Positions 6,261-58,439 of a stretch of 64,000 nucleotides of DNA are shown piece after piece. Under the pieces are notes generated by a model. That model was not told the origin of the DNA, did not search any database, and saw only the letters and a program-made list of their open reading frames with translations. A program made the translations under genes and the position numbers. This DNA comes from Schmidtea polychroa (Eukaryota), in assembly GCA_044892525.1 (NCBI GenBank), contig CM097885.1, positions 8,186,001 through 8,250,000 on the forward strand. The letters are read 5' to 3'. Each line of letters starts with the position of its first letter. Positions within the stretch are counted from its first letter, which is position 1.

Positions 6261-6917
6261 CACTGACTAATGAATAATGTTCATCTATGTATTCATACAA
6301 ATCCTCTAGATCCTTAAGCTGAAATTTATCTTCGCAAATTAATTCCAAATTGAATAATTAAAGATTACAGGGCCTTGTTGAAGTGAAAAAGACATAGTAT
6401 TCTGAAATAGCATCTATATTTGACCACAAAGCATTAGTGAAATTATTAAGTGTCAGTATGAAATATCGTGAGAAATTTCAATGTAATATCATAGCCGCAG
6501 AAAGACATGTAGAAATGGTTATGGACAAAGTAACATTAGTTTACGACAAAGAACTGAATCCGGAAAATGTTTATTTCTTACTCGAAAAAATTCAGCACAC
6601 CATCTTTATCCTGCTAATAAGAAACTATATTATTATTTTTATTATCATAAGAAAAAAAAGAGAAAAACATTTTTACACCATTACTTTATCAGTTAAAAAC
6701 GCTAAAGGTAATTAGATGCACTTTTAAACAGTTTCTGTGTTTCGACTAATTTTTTAGTCCGCAGAGGTGATTATGATTTTTCATACGCCAAGTTCACAAG
6801 TTTACAGATTTTCTGTGACCAAGCTAATAAGCAAGTGATGTGATTTTCCGTGAACCAGATAAAGTATGCAATATTGTATACTTACCTGGCGCGAAGAGAA
6901 ATCATCGCGTCTCCTGC

Positions 6918-6959
6918 ATATTACTGATGAGAGCCAAAAGCTCGAAAGTAGTCTACTAT
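6918..6959 (+). ncRNA. Minimal type-I hammerhead ribozyme motif (canonical core)
   Basis: ATATTA-CTGATGA-GAGC(CAAAA)GCTC-GAAA-GTAG-TC-TACTAT. Intact CUGAUGA/GAAA core, 4-bp stem II, GUC site (cleavage after 6953), stem I 5/6 paired. Confidence 0.7.
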
Positions 6960-6998
6960 TGAGATTTGCACTAAGTATCGCAAAGCTTGTGCTGTCTA

Positions 6999-7509
<511 letters not shown>

Positions 7510-18260: not shown

Positions 18261-18447
18261 CAAGGAGAATTATTACTTAAATTATCACTTTATTGTTTTA
18301 AATAATAAATGCTGCTACCAAAAAATCATCACTTTATATTATTATTATTATTATTATTATTAAATGATGATTGCTTGGTAGCAGCATTTATTATTTAAAA
18401 CAATAAAATGATAATTTAAGCCTTTTGCTGCAAATAATGTATTTAAT

Positions 18448-18486
18448 GAAAGAATTTTCGACTATACGATAGTCCTTGTCAATCTC
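18448..18486 (-). ncRNA. Family-C U3-A8 minimal hammerhead in the PLE terminal repeat (left arm)
   Basis: Reverse complement: GAGA-TTGACAA-G-GACTAT(CGT)ATAGTC-GAAA-AT-TC-TTTC. Confidence 0.75.
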
Positions 18487-18893
18487 CTGGAATTTAGCAA
18501 TGTTCTTCTTCAAAATACCCTTCAATCTTTCTTTTATTTCCTTTCTCTTAATTCTCATTGGTTGTAAATATAATGAATTGTTTTACTAAAAACTTTTAAA
18601 ATTTTTTTTTATAATTTTTACATTTAAAATTTCAAAATGACACAAACTAAAATTTTTAAATTTTTTACAGCTTCTGTAATTAGCTTCTAGAAGCCTAATA
18701 AAATATTTGAAAATATTTTAAATAAAGCCTCCAATAACTACTTATATATGCTATTTAAATATTTCAATAAATGTGTCAATTTTGATTTTCAAACCCTATT
18801 TTTTAAAATTTTTTTCTATATTATTCTAATTATTACTTTTTAATTTATTCTTATTTTTTTAATTTCTTTGTATATTGTCAGTTATTCTCAAAG

Positions 18894-20339
18894 TCAATGA
18901 CAACAGATCAAATTCATGATTTCATTGATTTCTTCTTTAGTGTTGATCTTTGGCTGTCTGTTTATTATGAGAATTGCTTCTTTGATTCTGACATTTTTCT
19001 TTTGGATGTTTCCATTAGCTATGATTTCTATTGAAATATTTTTTCTTTCCTCTGTTGGCTGACACTGCCGGAGATGTCTGCCCAACGAGGATGTTCCACC
19101 AGGATCTAGATGTTCTTTAACTCTTTGGTGCAATGTCCTGAGGGTACTTCCAATGTAGATTTCATTGCATACATTGCACGTGATGCAATAGACGATGTTT
19201 TTTCTAAAGCACATATCTTTCGGTGTCTGGCAGTTTTTCATTGTGCAATTGTTTTCTCTATTTATGTTGCCTGCCAGAGCCCTTCTCAATGTCCAAGATT
19301 TATGTGCTATCCGAATTGGAAGACCGGTACGTTTAAGTTCTTTCAGGATCTTGAAGTCGAGTATGTCACTGATGAATGGGATATTCAGATAGAAATATTT
19401 CTGATTCTTTTGTGTTAATTCCCTAGATCTTCTTGGGGTAGAATTCATTTTTTCAATGTCCTCACCTTGGTATCCGTTTCGGTGTAGGATTTTATTGAAA
19501 TTTGATTGCTCTTTAAAGTTTTCGTTTTTCTCCGTGCATCGATTGGCTATTCTTCGTTTCTCGTTTCTTATGACATTTACTTTCTGTAAGTATGGAAGCG
19601 CTGATCTTTGGTGCATAAATATTTCTTTGCGAGCTGGTTTTCTGTAGAACCCGTATGTTGGAGTATTTTCTTCTATTTTGATTCTCAAATCCAATAAATT
19701 GAGGGATCCATCTTCTTCCGGATATTCGATTTCGAACTTAATATCTTGATGAGCCGCATTGAATGAATGAAATATTTCCTCCGCTTCTTTTCTGTTTTTG
19801 GTCAAGATGAAGATATCATCTACATATCTTGCATAGAAACCGATGGGTTGTATGGTCCTCAGTGTCTGTCGTTCGAGGTTATCCATAAAGATGATTGCTA
19901 GCAGTCCTGATATGCTAGAACCCATAGGCAGACCTTTAACTTGTTTATAGATATTTTGTTTAAAGGTAAAATAGGTGTTCTCGAGGATAACAGTAAGTAG
20001 TTTGGTGATATTCTCGGTATTCATTTCCTTTATTAACAAGTTGCTTTCTCTTAATTTCTTTTCTAAACATTGAATAGCCTCTGTTGGTTCGATAGATGTG
20101 TATAGTGATACGACATCAAGACTAAATGGGTATTGGAATTCTCTATGACAAGTCATGTTATTATTTAGTCTTGTCATGAGGCAGTCGCTGCTTTGAAGAT
20201 GGTGTGGTATCGTGTCCAATAAAGGTTTCAAGATCTTTGCAAGGAGCCAACTTGTTTTAGTTGTTGGTCCATTTTTGTTGGACACTATAGGTCTAATTTT
20301 GATACCAGGACCCTCTTTGTGAGTTTTAATTAGGTGGTA
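18894..20339 (-). CDS. PLE reverse transcriptase + GIY-YIG endonuclease, 5'-truncated copy
   Basis: Open frame with SLDVVSLYT, GLPMGSSIS, YARYVDDIF, NGY thumb and IVYCITCNVCNEIYIGST-R-R-EH. The frame runs to the inversion junction. Confidence 0.93.
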   Translation of the reverse strand, partial: YHLIKTHKEGPGIKIRPIVSNKNGPTTKTSWLLAKILKPLLDTIPHHLQSSDCLMTRLNNNMTCHREFQYPFSLDVVSLYTSIEPTEAIQCLEKKLRESNLLIKEMNTENITKLLTVILENTYFTFKQNIYKQVKGLPMGSSISGLLAIIFMDNLERQTLRTIQPIGFYARYVDDIFILTKNRKEAEEIFHSFNAAHQDIKFEIEYPEEDGSLNLLDLRIKIEENTPTYGFYRKPARKEIFMHQRSALPYLQKVNVIRNEKRRIANRCTEKNENFKEQSNFNKILHRNGYQGEDIEKMNSTPRRSRELTQKNQKYFYLNIPFISDILDFKILKELKRTGLPIRIAHKSWTLRRALAGNINRENNCTMKNCQTPKDMCFRKNIVYCITCNVCNEIYIGSTLRTLHQRVKEHLDPGGTSSLGRHLRQCQPTEERKNISIEIIANGNIQKKNVRIKEAILIINRQPKINTKEEINEIMNLICCH

Positions 20340-22070
20340 ACGAAAGACGAACAGGCAATATTAAAATCCCTTAAAAAGAAACCGTACGTTTACTTACCAA
20401 GTGACAAGGGGGGAGAATTTTGCATTATAGAGAAGAATCGTTACTGTGAAGCTGGTTACGAACACCTCGGCAACATCGAAACATACAAGAAAGTCAGCCG
20501 CATGTCACCAAACACCATCGAAATGAAGATCAACAAAGTATGGAAAGCCATAGCTTTGGAAATGAGGCTCAACAACAGAATAACCAACAGCTTCGTCACA
20601 AAAAATTCTGATCTTCCTAACTTCTACCACCTAATTAAAACTCACAAAGAGGGTCCTGGTATCAAAATTAGACCTATAGTGTCCAACAAAAATGGACCAA
20701 CAACTAAAACAAGTTGGCTCCTTGCAAAGATCTTGAAACCTTTATTGGACACGATACCACACCATCTTCAAAGCAGCGACTGCCTCATGACAAGACTAAA
20801 TAATAACATGACTTGTCATAGAGAATTCCAATACCCATTTAGTCTTGATGTCGTATCACTATACACATCTATCGAACCAACAGAGGCTATTCAATGTTTA
20901 GAAAAGAAATTAAGAGAAAGCAACTTGTTAATAAAGGAAATGAATACCGAGAATATCACCAAACTACTTACTGTTATCCTCGAGAACACCTATTTTGCCT
21001 TTGAACAAAATATCTATAAACAAGTTAAAGGTCTGCCTATGGGTTCTAGCATATCAGGACTGCTAGCAATCATCTTTATGGATAACCTCGAACGACAGAC
21101 ACTGAGGACCATACAACCCATCGGTTTCTATGCAAGATATGTAGATGATATCTTCATCTTGACCAAAAACAGAAAAGAAGCGGAGGAAATATTTCATTCA
21201 TTCAATGCGGCTCATCAAGATATTAAGTTCGAAATCGAATATCCGGAAGAAGATGGATCCCTCAATTTATTGGATTTGAGAATCAAAATAGAAGAAAATA
21301 CTCCAACATACGGGTTCTACAGAAAACCAGCTCGCAAAGAAATATTTATGCACCAAAGATCAGCGCTTCCATACTTACAGAAAGTAAATGTCATAAGAAA
21401 CGAGAAACGAAGAATAGCCAATCGATGCACTGAGAAAAACGAAAACTTTAAAGAGCAATCAAATTTCAATAAAATCCTACACCGAAACGGATACCAAGGT
21501 GAGGACATTGAAAAAATGAATTCTACCCCAAGAAGATCTAGGGAATTAACACAAAAGAATCAGAAATATTTCTATCTGAATATCCCATTCATCAGTGACA
21601 TACTCGACTTCAAGATCCTGAAAGAACTTAAACGTACCGGTCTTCCAATTCGGATAGCACATAAATCTTGGACATTGAGAAGGGCTCTGGCAGGCAACAT
21701 AAATAGAGAAAACAATTGCACAATGAAAAACTGCCAGACACCGAAAGATATGTGCTTTAGAAAAAACATCGTCTATTGCATCACGTGCAATGTATGCAAT
21801 GAAATCTACATTGGAAGTACCCTCAGGACATTGCACCAAAGAGTTAAAGAACATCTAGATCCTGGTGGAACATCCTCGTTGGGCAGACATCTCCGGCAGT
21901 GTCAGCCAACAGAGGAAAGAAAAAATATTTCAATAGAAATCATAGCTAATGGAAACATCCAAAAGAAAAATGTCAGAATCAAAGAAGCAATTCTCATAAT
22001 AAACAGACAGCCAAAGATCAACACTAAAGAAGAAATCAATGAAATCATGAATTTGATCTGTTGTCATTGA
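20340..22070 (+). CDS. PLE reverse transcriptase + GIY-YIG endonuclease, longer 5'-truncated copy
   Basis: About 577 uninterrupted codons: SDKGG, LIKTHK, RPIVS, YVDD, Cys-rich linker, VY..YIG, EAILI...PKIN. The GTG at 20334 belongs to the opposite arm, so it is not a true start. Confidence 0.95.
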   Translation, partial: TKDEQAILKSLKKKPYVYLPSDKGGEFCIIEKNRYCEAGYEHLGNIETYKKVSRMSPNTIEMKINKVWKAIALEMRLNNRITNSFVTKNSDLPNFYHLIKTHKEGPGIKIRPIVSNKNGPTTKTSWLLAKILKPLLDTIPHHLQSSDCLMTRLNNNMTCHREFQYPFSLDVVSLYTSIEPTEAIQCLEKKLRESNLLIKEMNTENITKLLTVILENTYFAFEQNIYKQVKGLPMGSSISGLLAIIFMDNLERQTLRTIQPIGFYARYVDDIFILTKNRKEAEEIFHSFNAAHQDIKFEIEYPEEDGSLNLLDLRIKIEENTPTYGFYRKPARKEIFMHQRSALPYLQKVNVIRNEKRRIANRCTEKNENFKEQSNFNKILHRNGYQGEDIEKMNSTPRRSRELTQKNQKYFYLNIPFISDILDFKILKELKRTGLPIRIAHKSWTLRRALAGNINRENNCTMKNCQTPKDMCFRKNIVYCITCNVCNEIYIGSTLRTLHQRVKEHLDPGGTSSLGRHLRQCQPTEERKNISIEIIANGNIQKKNVRIKEAILIINRQPKINTKEEINEIMNLICCH

Positions 22071-22475
22071 CTTTGAGAATAACTGACAATATACAAAGAA
22101 ATTAAAAAAATAAGAATAAATTAAAAAGTAATAATTAGAATAATATAGAAAAAAATTTTAAAAAATAGGGTTTGAAAATCAAAATTGACACATTTATTGA
22201 AATATTTAAATAGCATATATAAGTAGTTATTGGAGGCTTTATTTAAAATATTTTCAAATATTTTATTAGGCTTCTAGAAGCTAATTATAGAAGCTGTAAA
22301 AAATTTAAAAATTTTAGTTTGTGTCATTTTGAAATTTTAAATGTAAAAATTATAAAAAAATTTTAAAAGTTTTTAGTAAAACAATTCATTATATTTACAA
22401 CCAATGAGAATTAAGAGAAAGGAAATAAAAGAAAGATCGAAGGGTATTTTGAAGAAGAACATTGCTAAATTCCAG

Positions 22476-22514
22476 GAGATTGACAAGGACTATCGTATAG
22501 TCGAAAATTCTTTC
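22476..22514 (+). ncRNA. Family-C U3-A8 minimal hammerhead in the PLE terminal repeat (right arm)
   Basis: GAGA-TTGACAA-G-GACTAT(CGT)ATAGTC-GAAA-AT-TC-TTTC. 6-bp stem II, UUC site, predicted cleavage after 22510. Confidence 0.75.
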
Positions 22515-22561
22515 ATTAAATACATTATTTGCAGCAAAAGGCTTAAATTATCATTTTATTG

Positions 22562-22655
<94 letters not shown>

Positions 22656-23164: not shown

Positions 23165-25060
23165 ATAAACATTGTTCCAATCACGACGATGCAAAAATTT
23201 GACTAATCTCTGACACATTGGCCTATGTCCGAATCATTTCTACATGCATTTCATGCATTTCCTGTTTTCATTTCTCCACGCGCTGCAAGTCAAATTTAAT
23301 GAATGATGATAATAATTATCCAGAAATTTTGCTTTATTTATTTCTATATTTAAATAACAAAATAAATTTCGTAATGAAATTTTTCAACAGAAAATTCCTA
23401 TCTCGTCCACATTTAAGAAAATTGTTTACAAACATCACATCCGATGTAGTATTGAATAAATAAAAATATCCAATTCGTCCATTTTTTCTGATTAGTTTTG
23501 AGTGAAATTAAATATTCCGTATCTTTAGTTAAACAAAAAAAATGAATAAAAAAAGAATGAGAAAATTTATCAATAATATTTCAACTATTATTGTGAACCG
23601 TAGCATATGGCATATATACATATATGTTTAATTTTGACTCACCAAAACCCATCAATTGGAATTTTCTAATGAATTATTAATGTAATGAGCTCATTTCATT
23701 TGCGTAGAGTATTCACTTTCAAAAAAATCTCTTACAAGCTGAGATCCCATTGATGCATGAATGATGAATTTGGTACCCATTATTACGGCAAGTACTTCAA
23801 CCTGGCTTGTTTTCCTTTTATTGTCAGAATATCTTTGTATTGTGCTTAATTGACGCAAATATTTGCATGTTTTGTTGGTTTAACGGTTTCCTTTGATAAA
23901 GGTGATTTCAATTGCAATTTAAATACAAGTCCATACATTGTCGGTGGTTGCATTGAATGATTTCCAAAGAAAGTGTACGAAATTTTGATAATCTTTGAAT
24001 GACAAATTTATAAAATTGTTTTTGGAATTGCTAGACAAAATCGTAAATAAGTTGATGAAGAAAATTAAATTCTCTTAGAGAATCGGTGACAAGAGTCCAG
24101 AGGTTGTTCTAGTTGTAATTAACATTTTAGGGCGTTTTTTTATTTTTTGTGAAGTATTTATTCTTTTGTACTTATCGTTCTATATTACTTAATAATTGTC
24201 TCACACACACACGCATATATATATATATATATATATTTGTGTGTGTGTACGTATGTGTACACCTTATTGTGATTTATTATAATTCATTGCTTTTATAAGT
24301 TTCGTGAAATCGCAGTTCTTTGCATTGTTTCTATACTAAAGTATGTCTAGACCTTTCCTTTATTTTTAGCTGTCAATTTACTTTGCGCGAGATATTAGAG
24401 ACAAATTTTATATTTGCGTCTACGGTTGGAATTATACAAGATTTATTAAATTTTTCAGCCGAAATAAAAATAAAACTTCATTTATTTCTATTTATATTTG
24501 TCATTATGAATCCTTCAAGAAAGATACAGATCATTCATTTCCTCATTACTCTCTAAGTAAGTAAAATCTCATAATTAACTTTGTTTACTCAGATCATTAT
24601 TATCTCTAAAAGTGAAAATAAGCATTATTTTTAACAAAATATTTACTTGAAAAAATATATTAGAAAAAGAAAGACAAACAAGAAAATAGTCTAATTATAA
24701 TCGTGTTAGAAAAGAAAAATTTAATTTTTCTTAATTTTCTATTTATTATTTAAAAGTTCGTCTGTGGATATATTTCCCAAAATATTATTTCATAAAAACA
24801 TTTCCCAAAAGAAATTTCATAAAAATAAAGACCAATTTTATTTTGGTTTTATTTTATATTTTTACAATTGAACATATTTGCCTCATTTTGCAAATAAAGA
24901 GAATTGGTGAAATTATTATTTGTTTGTTGTAAACCCTCACTCATTTAACCCCATCTTCTTCTGACTTCACCTTTTGACTGTTAACTGTTTTAAGCAGAAA
25001 TTGTAGAATCAAATATCCTTGTGGTAAATTCTGATTTCCCTTTAATTTTCTTAATAATAT

Positions 25061-25487
25061 TATAAGAACTTTTTTTTCAAATTTCACCACTGATTTCTTT
25101 TCCATTCCCATTGTATTTATTAAAAGGCTTGACTATTAATCAGTAAATATATCGATGTTTTTGATATATTTACTGATTCATAGTCAAGCTTTTTAATAAA
25201 TACAATTAATACAATTAATAACAATCACAAATAGGAAATATTATTTGTGTAATTAAAATATAATTAAAACAATAAATTTATTATAAAATATGAAATAAAT
25301 TTATTTTTCCCCAACAACAATTGGTAAATCCAATAATGATCAAATTCACTTGAAAAAAGGCAGTGCCGAAAATTCGTGAGTATCAACAAACATCGATATA
25401 TTACTGATTTATAGTCTTCAAGATCTCTTTTTAATAAATTCAATGAAAAAAATATTCAGTGGTGAAATTGGAAAAAAAGTTCTTATA
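25061..25487. mobile_element. PLE family-A terminal repeats: minus copy with snap-back (25061-25206) and plus copy (~25230-25487)
   Basis: Dispersed repeat with further copies at 7091, 28395, 32497, 35433, 43243, 55639, 57113, 57705 and 63925. Linked to a GIY-YIG remnant at 57465-57680. Confidence 0.8.
25344..25381 (+). ncRNA. Family-A U3-A8 minimal hammerhead
   Basis: ATTCAC-TTGAAAA-AA-GGC(AGT)GCC-GAAA-AT-TC-GTGAGT. 6-bp stem I, predicted cleavage after 25375. Confidence 0.7.
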
Positions 25488-28366
25488 ATAATTAATAATG
25501 ATAATAGTATTATCATTAATAATAATAATTAAAAATTACTACCAAGAAATGTCACAATTAAAACGTCTAAATCCTTTTTTTGAAAATTCGGCTGTATTTA
25601 ATCAAAATAAAATTATAAATTTTTCTCTAATTTTAAATGGTGTTCTTAATTGATTGTTGAAATAATCAATATTATTGATTATTTTTGTGAAAGATAATCG
25701 ATATTTTAATTATCTCAAAAAGTGTTTGAATTGAACAGAAACATCCGCAAAAATTAAATCCCATCACTCCTCCATTCCAGTCATTTACTTATTCGATTTT
25801 CTTTACTTTTCTCCATTGAGAAATTATTCGATAAAATTTTACGTTTTTTATGTGATTTATTTTTATTTCTTTAGTATCCTATGGCAATTTTATTATTGGT
25901 TTTTGGTGTCTAGAGATGCAATTAAATATATACCCCCCTTGAATATATTTTTACGGGTTAATCCAATGATACAAGATGGTTATGGTTTTGAATTTCCGTC
26001 AGTATCATCTCTTTGTTATGTTGCCTGGACGCTGATTTTGGTTTCCAATACTTTCTCTAAAGTTTTCAATAAAGTATTGGTAAAGTTATATTGAAAGCTA
26101 AAAATAAAAAAAAATTTCCCAATATCAGAAAATGTCAGTCTTGCCATAAAAATATTTAACCTACATTGGATGAATAATAGGCAATATTTTATCAGTTATT
26201 AATATTGTTGCAAAGGTATTTTCCCAAACAATTGTTTTAATATTTGGATTTGTGAATTATAAATGATATTTTCCCTTTGGTATCTATTTTATTTGGCAGA
26301 TGGATTGTCTATATCTCGGTTATTCTTGTATTAAGTTTTCGCTTTTACGGTTGTAACATCATTTCCAACATTGCTGAAATCAGGAGAAGCTGGGTTTGGG
26401 AAAGATTATCTCGACACTATCCAGGCTAACAATATGTAACATTTAACAAGATTTCTTACAAGTAGTTACAGTGCATAGAATTAGGAATATTTAAAATACC
26501 AGAAATTTTAGTACCAAATTCAGGAAAATTATTGATTTTTTTGTTTTAATTGAAAGCGGTTTCGTTCTAATTTTATTTGTAATGGTTTTCAACAGTAAAT
26601 CTCCACCCAGGCCGAGTAACCGTTGGCGGAGTAAAAATAAAATACAGCCAAATCTTTCTATGACCAATTTTTTATTTCCAAAAAATACTCTTTAAAATAA
26701 TTGTAACATTAGAAAATCAAAATACGTTATTAAAAATATTTTTTAAAAATTGTTTTGCCCTCTCCCTAGGTACGCTATTTGTTTGGAATATTTGTAAATG
26801 GAATATAAGAACTTAATGACAAATTAAACTGTTAATAATTTAATTAAATTTAATGGTATTTTTAGTAATATCTATTACAATTACCAACTAAATGTAATTG
26901 TAAATAATCCATCAATTATTTCGTAATCAAGAACATCAATCATATTTAAACATTTATCCAATGAAATTTTAGCATACTAATCTCAATTATTTTTCTTTCA
27001 TCGCATTCAAAAAATTAAAGATTACATTAATTAATAATTTATTATTACTGTTTTTAACCTTTTCTCCAGGCAATTTTTTCTTGCGTTTAATATTTATTGA
27101 TAAATTACGAAATCACTTTTGAAAGGCGCATTAAAAATCGGAATTCTATATACTGAAAAACAAGAATATACAGTAATTGGGCTACATTGTTGCTGGATTT
27201 AATAACGAGTCATTGCCTTACGAAATTGGAATAGACTTGACAATGTGAATAATTAGAACGATAATGAGTCGTAAGAACCTCAATAGAATTTCTCCCGGAA
27301 TAAACATTTGCCTCACTAATCTCTCATACACACTGGCAAATACTCAATTGCAAATATCAGCAATTTATTAAGGATTTAACCAAATATGTATTTGGTTCAT
27401 ATGTTTCCCCGAATTTTTGTTTAAGCACAAAACATTTTAGAGCAAGCAGTTTAATATTTGATTGACTGAATCGAAATGCCTGTTTTTTTCTTTTGAGAGA
27501 AAGTATAATTATTGTTGATTAAATAAACAAATTCTATTCAGAAATTCTGTCAACAGAATCCCATTGACATTAGTCACGGTTTCATGGGTATCGCATTTGA
27601 ATTAGCGGTTTGAGATAATAAATTTATTAGAATTTTTGTTTCAATAAACCAATAAAATTACATCACTAAATTATTATTTCCAAAACTAAAATGAAGCGCA
27701 GTTATTTGCTTTCATAGTTTAATCTATTTAAATGTATTCTAATTTCTCCCGTTTTTTCATAAATGGATCGAACTTCTTTCATCTTGCAAATAACTCGTTT
27801 TTGTCATTAAATTTTTTTTATTTTTAAACTTCTGTCATCTAAATATACTATTAAAACAGATTTCCGTCAATTTATAACAAATATTTATGCAATATTTTAT
27901 TAAATTCTTCATCAGTGACCGAATATTTTATATTTTTCTCTCTTTATTTTATGACATTAGAGATAAATAAATTCGTGTTAAATAAATAAAAATATTGATT
28001 ATAGCCTGAAATATGATATAGTAATATTCCTATTATTATTATATAGTATTGTAATAAAATAAAATAATTATAATAAAATTTTAGTAGGTATTTTATTAAA
28101 AAATAAATCTGGAATGATCATTCTTCATATTTTTACCAAATTATTTACAGTTCTGATTGAATAGTATGAAAAACTGCAAAATATTTTATCTAAATAATTT
28201 TTTTGAATATATTATGAGAAAAATGCTTTTCGTCTTATCATGACAATCTCCATAATTAACACATATATGATTATAAGTCTTAAAGAAACACAAAAAAAAT
28301 AAAACTCAAATCTAAAATAAAAATTTTCATTACATTAAATTGTTTTTATTCCTTCTTAATATTATT

Positions 28367-28394
<28 letters not shown>

Positions 28395-28397
<3 letters not shown>

Positions 28398-28560
28398 AAC
28401 AACTTTTTTTTATAATTTCATCCCCGATTTCTTTTCCATTCTATTTATTAAAAAGCTTGACTATGAATCAGTGAATCAGAAAAAGGCAGTACCGAAAGTT
28501 CTTAAATATCAAAAACATCGATATATTTACTGATTCATAGTCAAACCTTTTAATAAATAA
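28395..28560. mobile_element. PLE family-A tail-out inverted pair with truncated hammerhead (~28478-28505, +)
   Basis: A minus-strand 3' end is joined to plus-strand GGCAGTACCGAAAGTTC...CATCGATATATTTACTGATTCATAGTC. Flanked by (AAT)n. Confidence 0.7.
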
Positions 28561-28953
28561 TAATGTTATTATTAATATTATTAAGAAATAACTATATGAA
28601 CAACTTAAATAAAAAGAAAGCTATACTACTTGCTTATTATACTACTTATTTTATAAAGTTATACACAATGCTACATGTTACACTATGTTATATAAGGTGA
28701 AAATCGAGTTATTAAATTCCATTTCATCACAATATCATCTGTCGTATTAATATATAAGATAGAAGAGACTGTTATGTAATTATGATTTTAAAACATGAGA
28801 CTTGTTTCATCAAAGGTTCCTACATGCAACAACGCACATTCATGCATACATCAAACAATTAATTAGCTTTATTATTAAGTGATAATACACTATACAAAGT
28901 TTTTATGGCGTTCTTTTCTATTTACCCTAAAATCTTTATCCTAAAAAATAAAA

Positions 28954-57107: not shown

Positions 57108-57217
57108 ATTATTATAAGAACTTTTTTTCCAATTTCACCATTGATTATTTTTCAAATGAATTTATGAACAAGAGAGCTTGAAGACTATAAATCAGTAATA
57201 TATCGATGTTTTTTGAT

Positions 57218-57253
57218 ACTCACGAATTTTCGGCACTGCTTTTTCAAGTGAAT
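57218..57253 (-). ncRNA. Family-A U3-A8 hammerhead (one stem-II G lost)
   Basis: Reverse complement: ATTCAC-TTGAAAA-A-GCAGTGCC-GAAA-AT-TC-GTGAGT. Confidence 0.6.
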
Positions 57254-57464
57254 TTGATCATTATTGCATTTATCAATTATTGTTAGGGAAAAATAATAAA
57301 TCTATTGGTTTAATTATATTTTAATTACCAATATAATATTTCCTATTTCTTATATTTTATTTTTTTAAAAAACGTTTTTTAATTTTTATTTATTTTAGTT
57401 TTAAATTTTAAATTTAAATCCAAATTCAAACCTAAATTTAAACTTAAACCTAAATTCAAAATTT

Positions 57465-57680
57465 AGTTGAATGTTGATGGACGGTTGATGAGTCTCTGCG
57501 GCTAATCTTTGCAATGTATTTTTGAACGCATCTTGTAACATTTTGCATTTTGTTTCGTGTATGAGTGGTGCTGATTTCTGTACTTTTTTAATTGCTTGTT
57601 TTGCTTTTGACGTGTTTGTTGAGTCTCGTTTTGAACGTTCTATGTGTTTCGCCTATGTACGATGCGTCACATCTTGTGCA
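57465..57680 (-). pseudogene. PLE family-A GIY-YIG endonuclease remnant
   Basis: Minus-strand CTRCDASYIGETHRTFKTRLNKH, then AIKKVQKSAPLIH after a frameshift. Confidence 0.8.
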
Positions 57681-58439
57681 TTTTATATTTTTATAAAATA
57701 AAATATACAAAATAGGAAATATTATTTGTGTAATTAAAATATAAATAAACCAATAAATTTATTATAAAATATGAAATAAATTTATTTTTCCCCAACAGTA
57801 ATTGATAAATGCAATAATGATCAAATTCGTGAGTATCAAAAAACATCGAAATATTACTAATTTATAGTCTTCAAGCTCTCTTTTTAATAAATTATTATTA
57901 TTAATCTTATTATTATTATTATTAATATTATTATTATTAATATTATTATTATTAATATTATTATTATTAATTTTATTACTAAAATTAGTATTATTATTGT
58001 TTGGTTTTATTAATTCAAGCCGGTACTCTCTGACTCCTCATGTCTCTTTAATTGAAAATCACAAATAACAAGCTACCCAACGTATATTTGTTTTATTATA
58101 ATTTTTACAATTCACCGGATATGCAAACAATATTATTTCTCAATTATTCGATCAAGTTCCGCTGCGAGATATCTGAACTATGTGCGATTCACAACAAAAA
58201 TCACCTTTTAATGTTCTTGTTCTCTTTTAACGCTACTCTTTATTCTGATTCTCTGATTTCCTTTGATTCAATTTTTTCCCTTTTATTTTTCTTGGTTTCC
58301 TTTATTCTTTTACTCTTTCCCTTTTTATCTTTTAGCAATACTCCTTTTTATTTCTTCAATTACCGTTACCTTCCCCTTTGTCTTCTCGTATCTTAATTTT
58401 CTTTCAAACCTAACCTAGATTTCTTCCGTCCCTAACTGA

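What the first reader, a model, noticed from the sequence alone, without database searches (positions are those of the whole stretch)
25110..25206. Snap-back hairpins that turn ~4-5 nt from the predicted ribozyme cleavage site
Seen: a ~44-bp hairpin with loop GATGTTTTT (25154-25162). The same turn point recurs at 7116-7160. In unrearranged family-A copies the minus strand continues GATGTTTTTGATA(C/T)TCAC up to the UC/GUGA cleavage site. Here it instead folds back via GATAT/ATATC microhomology. Inference: cDNA copied from an HHR-cleaved RNA runs off at the cut and self-primes. This would be a genomic fossil of in vivo activity of the U3-A8 ribozyme and a mechanism for the tail-out inversions.
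Basis: partly seen in the sequence, partly recalled or inferred. Interest (0 to 1): 0.72.

Follow-up and report, generated by a model that had tools for sequence, protein, structure and literature searches.

The report
Penelope inversion junction beside a hammerhead
The 44-base-pair hairpin is the head-to-head joint of two arms of a very abundant Penelope-like jumping gene; it turns five or six bases past the predicted ribozyme cut, but most copies run through that cut, so it is likely an ordinary product of how these elements insert and not proof that the ribozyme cuts in the animal.

Summary
The hairpin is real (42 of 44 pairs). At 7116-7160 the same loop recurs, but only as an 18-bp stem whose arms then diverge. 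Family A is the 3' repeat (pLTR) of a Penelope-like element with a U3-A8 minimal hammerhead. Head-to-head arms and this ribozyme variant are both published.

The turn lies at +5/+6 of the predicted cut in two window loci and one contig. This looks like a small hotspot, but the cut is not shown to cause it. The longest arm runs through the cut in 8 of 10 window loci. Genome-wide contig depth shows no step at the cut and collapses at the ribozyme's 5' edge. +5/+6 also lies inside stem I, where reverse transcriptase could stall on uncut RNA.

Simple self-priming fits poorly. In 5 of 8 inversions, including the 7.1-kb site, the second arm carries a 3' tail that the first lacks. Two separately primed cDNAs joined by microhomology fit better.

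The decisive breakpoint histogram could not be run. The scan noted the same pattern earlier in other genomes.

The parts
25042..25166 (-). First (loop-bearing) arm: family-A pLTR fragment from +6 of the predicted cut to the element's 3' end, with the ~50-nt tail
25154..25162 (+). 9-nt hairpin loop: unrearranged antisense element sequence between the two halves of the natural 4-5-base inverted repeat
25163..25206 (+). Second arm: sense copy from +20, no tail; 42 of 44 like the first arm, 34 of 35 like the 28.4-kb arm
25217..25495 (+). Adjacent unrearranged sense family-A copy of a younger subtype, with intact ribozyme and tail, ending in an AAT-rich run
25337..25385 (+). Predicted type I minimal hammerhead: core U3-A8 at 25350-25356, 3-bp stem II, palindromic AAUU in place of stem III, predicted cut 25375/25376; extended stem I pairs +1..+10
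   Evidence: activity untested
7089..7146 (-). Second site, first arm: same loop (7134-7142), no tail, abuts a (TTA)n run
7143..7391 (+). Second site, second arm: diverged sense copy, interrupted by about 165 bases of other sequence, carries the tail
28386..28575 (.). Family-A inversion turning at about -22 (inside the ribozyme core); tail on the second arm
57115..57900 (.). Family-A inversion with a 317-nt loop holding a GIY-YIG remnant (about 57590-57690, minus strand); links family A to a Penelope-like ORF
   Evidence: (Pfam GIY-YIG E 1.7e-4, 22.3 bits, just under the 22.6 cut-off)
18362..22566 (.). Young Penelope-like element of another family (RT + GIY-YIG, 20334-22067) with a 99.6%-identical inverted arm and a 285-nt loop; it turns about 2.1 kb upstream of its own U3-A8 hammerhead (22480); tail on the second arm only

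Best explanation
The hairpin is the head-to-head junction of a truncated Penelope-like insertion, likely made when two antisense cDNAs, each primed from one end of the cut target DNA, annealed through the element's own 4-5-base inverted repeat, with the first cDNA likely having stalled in the ribozyme's stem I on uncut RNA and not having run off a cut end. Shown: the arms, the loop, the element's identity, the tail on one arm only, and that most arms extend upstream of the cut. Inferred: two priming events (one at the far start giving the tail, one at the near start), annealing and gap filling, and the stall. The +5/+6 turn is a minor recurrent site. The family's main 5' boundary is the upstream edge of the ribozyme, possibly the start of the transcript (inferred).
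For: Exactly one arm has the tail in 8 of 8 inversions. It is the second arm in 5 of 8 (4 of 6 for families A and C), including the 99.6%-identical element. A self-copy cannot be longer than its template. A purified PLE protein nicks and extends both target strands, starts at two sites that bound the tail, and does not need ribozyme cleavage (PMC11167929). The longest arm passes the cut in 8 of 10 family-A loci, and 0 of 6 solo copies begin at the cut (boundaries, since the alignments over-extend in AT-rich DNA). In run X1 (32,395 contigs laid), depth is 10.7M at 25375, 10.9M at 25376 and 11.2M at 25380, but falls from 9.5M to 0.3M over 25358-25322; X5, from a second study, has the same shape. 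The best-supported strand changes have one arm reaching 25354, upstream of the cut (8 and 6 contigs in X1, 5 and 2 in X5). A cDNA end at -29/-30, using stem I as inverted repeat, ranks first for fold-back in 2 of the 3 intact-type copies scanned. Stem I pairs +1..+10. In the 28.5-kb copy, the subtype closest to the hairpin, +5 ranks 3 of 57 ends on sequence alone.
Against: The turn recurs close to the cut: 2 of 4 family-A inversions, P about 0.02-0.03 if all 42-51 sites with >=4-base microhomology were equal (post hoc), plus one contig table 5c. In the three intact-type copies +6 is an unremarkable fold-back site (ranks 19 of 136, 30 of 123, 11 of 85), so sequence alone does not single it out there. 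At 25.1 kb itself the tail is on the first arm, which self-priming allows. About 7.8M of downstream depth was laid on the hairpin arm and not on the intact copy, so up to about half of family depth is not shown to pass the cut. The depth drop near 25354 is partly an alignment break at a length variant of the reference. The tail could also be trimmed from a hairpin intermediate by the endonuclease, as PMC8557442 suggests. The stall itself is untested.
Confidence: 0.55

Rival explanations
1. One reading: a cDNA copied from ribozyme-cut RNA runs off at +1, its last 4-5 bases are trimmed as a flap, and it primes on itself or on the partner cDNA.
For: Recurrence at +5/+6 in three differently built loci (table 5c, 48). 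Snap-back after full-length cDNA is documented for R2 proteins (PMC11371274), and R2 5' junctions track its ribozyme cut (PMC3774820 abstract). The commonest strand changes have a second arm starting at or just upstream of 25388 or its equivalent, which a cut RNA would also give.
Against: The junction is not at the cut. There is no depth step at the cut and no solo copy starts there. The tail is on the second arm at 7.1 kb. Metazoan minimal hammerheads cut poorly and not as monomers (PMC4209133), and no RNA reads began or ended at the cut in the anole element (PMC11167929). With the 28.5-kb copy's sequence as template, run-off would pair best at +2 (7 bases) and give a different junction from the one seen.
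Confidence: 0.25
2. A DNA-level template switch after insertion (replication or repair polymerase) at the short natural inverted repeat made the fold-back; no RNA step set the turn.
For: The one contig table 5c carries the turn downstream of a sense copy that still has its ribozyme, a double-switch layout. A repeated 9-base unit sits at the end of the second arm (25198-25215).
Against: The one-arm tail and the microsatellite ends in 8 of 8 inversions match published insertion products (PMC3846280). A later switch would not add a tail to the second arm.
Confidence: 0.11
3. All copies with this turn descend from one rearranged master that was amplified.
For: Identical loop at both window sites.
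Against: The first arms belong to different subtypes (39 of 45 alike; the 7.1-kb arm is 41 of 47 like the younger subtype). The tail is on opposite arms, and the third junction has yet another arm variant.
Confidence: 0.06
4. Assembly or amplification fold-back artefact.
For: No listed contig piece spans the junction, whose reference began at the loop.
Against: The arms differ at 2 of 44 positions. Four runs hold 0.87-0.93 of the sampled words of 24000-27500, and two runs of another study hold 0.59. The layout matches published insertions.
Confidence: 0.03

Closest known systems
Insertion architecture of endonuclease-bearing Penelope-like elements (Arkhipova et al. 2013, PMC3846280; Craig et al. 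2021, PMC8557442; passages read)
   Same: Inverted 5'-truncated copy next to a direct pLTR, palindrome at the head-to-head junction, a 30-40-bp tail on one arm only, AT-rich or microsatellite targets. Self-priming was already proposed there.
   Different: The tail here is about 50 nt in family A. The passages read do not relate the junction to the ribozyme or tally which arm holds the tail. Their self-priming is on an antisense template.
[quoted passage not shown]
   Same: U3-A8 core covariation, an extra base between 9 and 10.1 in the majority form, G10.1-C11.1, palindromic 15.2-16.2, mostly single motifs, some pairs on opposite strands 100-700 bp apart.
   Different: Stem II here is only 3 bp, against 7-8 bp in the Schistosoma motifs; activity is untested.
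Anole Poseidon element in vitro (Frangieh et al. 2024, PMC11167929; parts 1-2 of 4 read, supplements not seen)
   Same: Both strands nicked at ATT and extended; two start sites bound the tail.
   Different: It does not address how inverted arms are joined; the two-cDNA join is my inference.
R2 cDNA snap-back junctions (Zhang et al. 2024, PMC11371274; PMC11331408; passages read)
   Different: Different element class and an HDV-like ribozyme at the 5' end; true self-copy, with no tail asymmetry described in the passages read.

Membership tests
EN+ Penelope-like element (pLTR fragment) | pLTR lies directly 3' of an ORF ending in a GIY-YIG endonuclease | tested here: met
   GIY-YIG remnant upstream of the 57.1-kb copy on the same strand (Pfam E 1.7e-4, just under cut-off; 11 of 26 identical to the window's intact element)
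EN+ Penelope-like element (pLTR fragment) | Reverse transcriptase in the same ORF | not testable with these tools
   No full family-A master in the window and no genome held. RT + GIY-YIG is shown only for family C.
EN+ Penelope-like element (pLTR fragment) | Hammerhead motif within the pLTR | tested here: met
   Rfam gave no match at gathering score
EN+ Penelope-like element (pLTR fragment) | Head-to-head inverted truncated copy, tail on one arm | tested here: met
   4 of 4 family-A inversions
EN+ Penelope-like element (pLTR fragment) | Target-site duplication | tested here: inconclusive
   By eye only; ends lie in AAT/ATT runs
EN+ Penelope-like element (pLTR fragment) | Clade placement (Penelope/Poseidon, Neptune, Nematis) | not tested
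   Homologs of family C were unnamed; no tree built
Minimal type I hammerhead | Core with 3-8 pair, GAAA, NUH triplet, stems I and II | tested here: met
   U3-A8, UUC triplet, stem I 6+4 bp, stem II 3 bp
Minimal type I hammerhead | Self-cleavage (as a dimer) | not testable with these tools
   Two copies co-fold through the AAUU palindrome in silico; no assay
Self-primed snap-back product | Second arm is a copy of, and no longer than, the first | tested here: inconclusive
   Met at 25.1 kb (42 of 44, shorter); not met at 7.1 kb (31 of 46, tail only on the second arm); not met in 5 of 8 inversions overall
Non-LTR retrozyme | Head-to-tail tandem units, each with a hammerhead; monomers bounded by cuts | tested here: not met
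   No such array in the window; copies carry the ribozyme at their 5' end

The most novel reading that the evidence does not exclude
A minority of Penelope insertions are built from two cDNAs, one of them copied from ribozyme-cut RNA. The +5/+6 hairpins, and the commoner inversions that appear to join through stem I, would then be the first genomic footprint of a Penelope hammerhead cutting in vivo, and would explain head-to-head arms with a tail on either side.
Probability: 0.2. Interest if true: 0.62.

Novelty: new member of a known kind. Interest (0 to 1): 0.28.

Why it matters
Whether Penelope hammerheads cut in vivo, and how the inverted arms form, are open questions (PMC4209133 notes the lack of in vivo evidence; PMC11167929 found cleavage dispensable in vitro). 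This family is very abundant (32,395 contigs laid in one run), so one assembled genome could test both by counting junctions and tails. As it stands the finding is a good test case and not an answer. The tail-on-the-second-arm tally is the more useful lead, since it argues against simple self-priming.

Tried and rejected
No whole genome is held, so no breakpoint histogram could be built.

The single read-laying run (22) used a reference starting at the loop. Contigs with the same +6 junction therefore probably count as running over the end (1,093 in X1 and 957 in X5, both ends pooled) and not as joints, so their absence from the joint table says nothing. Only 15 of 88 joints and 12 of 342 between-letter rows were shown. 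Depth over the first bin bounds such copies at roughly 5-7% of family depth, perhaps twice that given edge loss. Contigs cannot show RNA ends, and no RNA holder was listed. Two runs guessed to be RNA were laid but give no evidence on cleavage.

Rfam: 0 matches. Pattern scans: 0 in metagenomes for the arm and 0 in viral contigs for the junction. The ribozyme pattern gave 3 hits; the two read (L001, L003) were unrelated GC-rich DNA and L002 was not read. Related-locus scans gave nothing and two loci: L004 has a hammerhead-like motif behind its ORF and no inversion, and L005 has one 43-nt self-match that was not followed up.

Two neighbouring A/G differences between the family-C arms hint at two templates but are weak (P 0.06) and were not counted as evidence. 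Paper searches listed no study that ties PLE inversion junctions to the hammerhead cut. Subscription papers, and the supplements of the papers read, were not seen and may bear on this.

Full report
Observation. The hairpin is as described: 25110-25153 and 25163-25206 pair at 42 of 44 positions around a 9-nt loop. It folds with z -15 and is the only such non-microsatellite hairpin in a window-wide scan. At 7116-7160 the loop is identical, but only 16 of 18 positions pair. Beyond that the right arm is no closer to its partner (31 of 46) than to other copies (32 of 47). The window is AT-rich (18-37% GC in 2-kb bins) and carries exons of an RRM gene on both sides of the finding.

What the family is. 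Self-BLAST finds 14 family-A arms in 10 loci. The intact copy at 25217-25495 holds a minimal type I hammerhead: U3-A8 core, 3-bp stem II, palindromic AAUU, predicted cut between 25375 and 25376, and an extended stem I pairing +1..+10. These features match the published PLE minimal hammerheads, including the U3-A8 variant (PMC4209133), apart from the short stem II. Upstream of the 57.1-kb copy, on the same strand, lies a GIY-YIG remnant, so family A is the 3' repeat of a Penelope-like element. The window also holds an RT + GIY-YIG element of another family with its own U3-A8 hammerhead, and a third family with a C3-G8 core. Family A is very abundant: 32,395 and 15,852 contigs were laid from runs of two studies.

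Where inversions turn. There are eight head-to-head inversions in the window. Two turn at +6/+7 (25.1 and 7.1 kb). The other six have a longest arm that passes the cut: about -22 (28.4 kb), about -45 (18.2 kb, by eye), inside the endonuclease gene (57.1 kb; probably also the two family-B pairs, whose loops give only weak hints), and about 2.1 kb upstream inside the RT gene (18.4-22.6 kb). Among family-A loci the longest arm passes the cut in 8 of 10, and none of 6 solo copies starts at the cut. Their starts lie at about -34 to -57, or -159. Cleavage is therefore not the general cause of the inversions.

Genome-wide view. Contig depth on the intact copy has no step at the cut (X1: 10.7M at 25375, 10.9M at 25376, 11.2M at 25380), but falls about thirty-fold across the ribozyme's 5' edge, in both DNA studies. 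Part of that fall is an alignment break at 25353-25354, and 7.8M of downstream depth went to the hairpin arm, so the share of copies passing the cut is bounded only at about half or more. The best-supported strand changes (25163 to 25354: 8 contigs in X1, 5 in X5; 25354 to 25388: 6 and 2; 25354 to 25417: 2 and 0) have one arm reaching upstream of the core. They fit a fold through stem I, the top-ranked fold-back end in 2 of 3 intact-type copies, but the letters between their arms were not shown, so this is inference. One contig (table 5c, 25383 to 25158) carries the same loop and turn with a third arm variant; my reference favoured catching it. My reference also began at the loop, so same-junction contigs could not be counted as joints. 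A rough depth bound puts them at no more than 5-7% of family depth.

Is the recurrence more than chance? With 42-51 candidate ends having 4 or more bases of inverted match, two of four inversions falling in +1..+7 has P 0.02-0.03. If short loops are preferred there are only 5-8 candidates, and two sharing any one site has P 0.13-0.2. The hypothesis was formed after seeing the data. In the subtype closest to the hairpin, +5 ranks 3 of 57 on sequence alone; in the younger subtype +6 ranks 11-30. I read this as a minor real hotspot whose cause is open: a stall in stem I, the local hairpin, or run-off at a cut with trimming.

Self-priming or two cDNAs. Each family has two 3' ends separated by a 35-50-nt tail. 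The tail is on exactly one arm in 8 of 8 inversions, and on the second arm in 5 (7.1 kb, 28.4 kb, both family-C pairs, one family-B pair). The tail queries for families B and C were taken from one of these arms, and first-arm calls for family B are inferred. A self-copied arm cannot carry sequence that its template lacks, and the 99.6%-identical pair makes later decay unlikely there. The purified anole protein extends both nicked strands from two start sites that bound the tail, and works with a dead ribozyme (PMC11167929). The simplest reading is two cDNAs, one per target end, annealed by an inverted microhomology (inferred). A hairpin intermediate trimmed by the endonuclease (suggested in PMC8557442) remains possible, but would need cuts of both polarities. 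At 25.1 kb the tail is on the first arm, so that locus alone cannot decide. Its second arm is, however, as close to the 28.4-kb arm (34 of 35) as to its partner.

Comparison and novelty. Palindromes at head-to-head junctions, the one-sided tail and a self-priming proposal are in PMC3846280 (passages). I also read part 1 of 5 of a 2026 preprint on retrozymes and passages of two reviews; the dimer-cleavage paper of Lunse et al. was seen only as a reference. Seven searches listed no paper linking PLE junctions to the cut. Earlier notes of this scan on other genomes report 5' ends piling at the ribozyme's upstream edge and only a mild preference for the cut. I saw them after forming my reading (note); they agree but are unchecked and are not counted as evidence.

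Verdict. A real, ordinary Penelope inversion junction at a minor recurrent turn; new member of a known kind. Best explanation 0.55, cleavage footprint 0.25, interest 0.28.

Noticed in passing
window 25337-25354 and equivalents; depth table: Most family-A copies begin at the upstream edge of the ribozyme (about -30 to -40), not at the cut; single arms of families B (63747) and C (about 18270) do likewise. The stem I strand contains TCACT, which PMC3846280 calls initiator-like, so this may be the transcript start.
   Followed up: partly
window 18362-22566: Young Penelope-like element with 578 open codons and a 1.94-kb inverted arm (5 substitutions, one 2-base indel); two A/G differences lie 6 bases apart, as two templates or RNA editing would give.
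   Followed up: partly
window 57818-57830: The second arm of the 57-kb inversion lacks the whole ribozyme core, deleted between two short direct repeats in stem I and stem III, as if the folded motif had been skipped. The 63.9-kb copy has a similar deletion just after the cut.
   Followed up: no
window 6905-6965: A canonical-core (C3-G8) hammerhead-like motif of a further family, ending in the same (TTA)n run that the 7.1-kb arm abuts.
   Followed up: no
window 15543-62628: Exons of a multi-RRM (ELAV-like; name recalled) gene span the window, so the hairpin would be in an intron and would form a 44-bp duplex in pre-mRNA.
   Followed up: no
table 7, run X8, place 25161: One contig joins the antisense arm straight to the sense arm without the hairpin tip, as a deletion between two short direct repeats of such a hairpin, or a different turn, would give.
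   Followed up: no
L004:2254-2285: A Penelope-like element inside a contig filed as a bacterial genome bin, with a hammerhead-like motif behind its ORF; probably host contamination of the bin.
   Followed up: no
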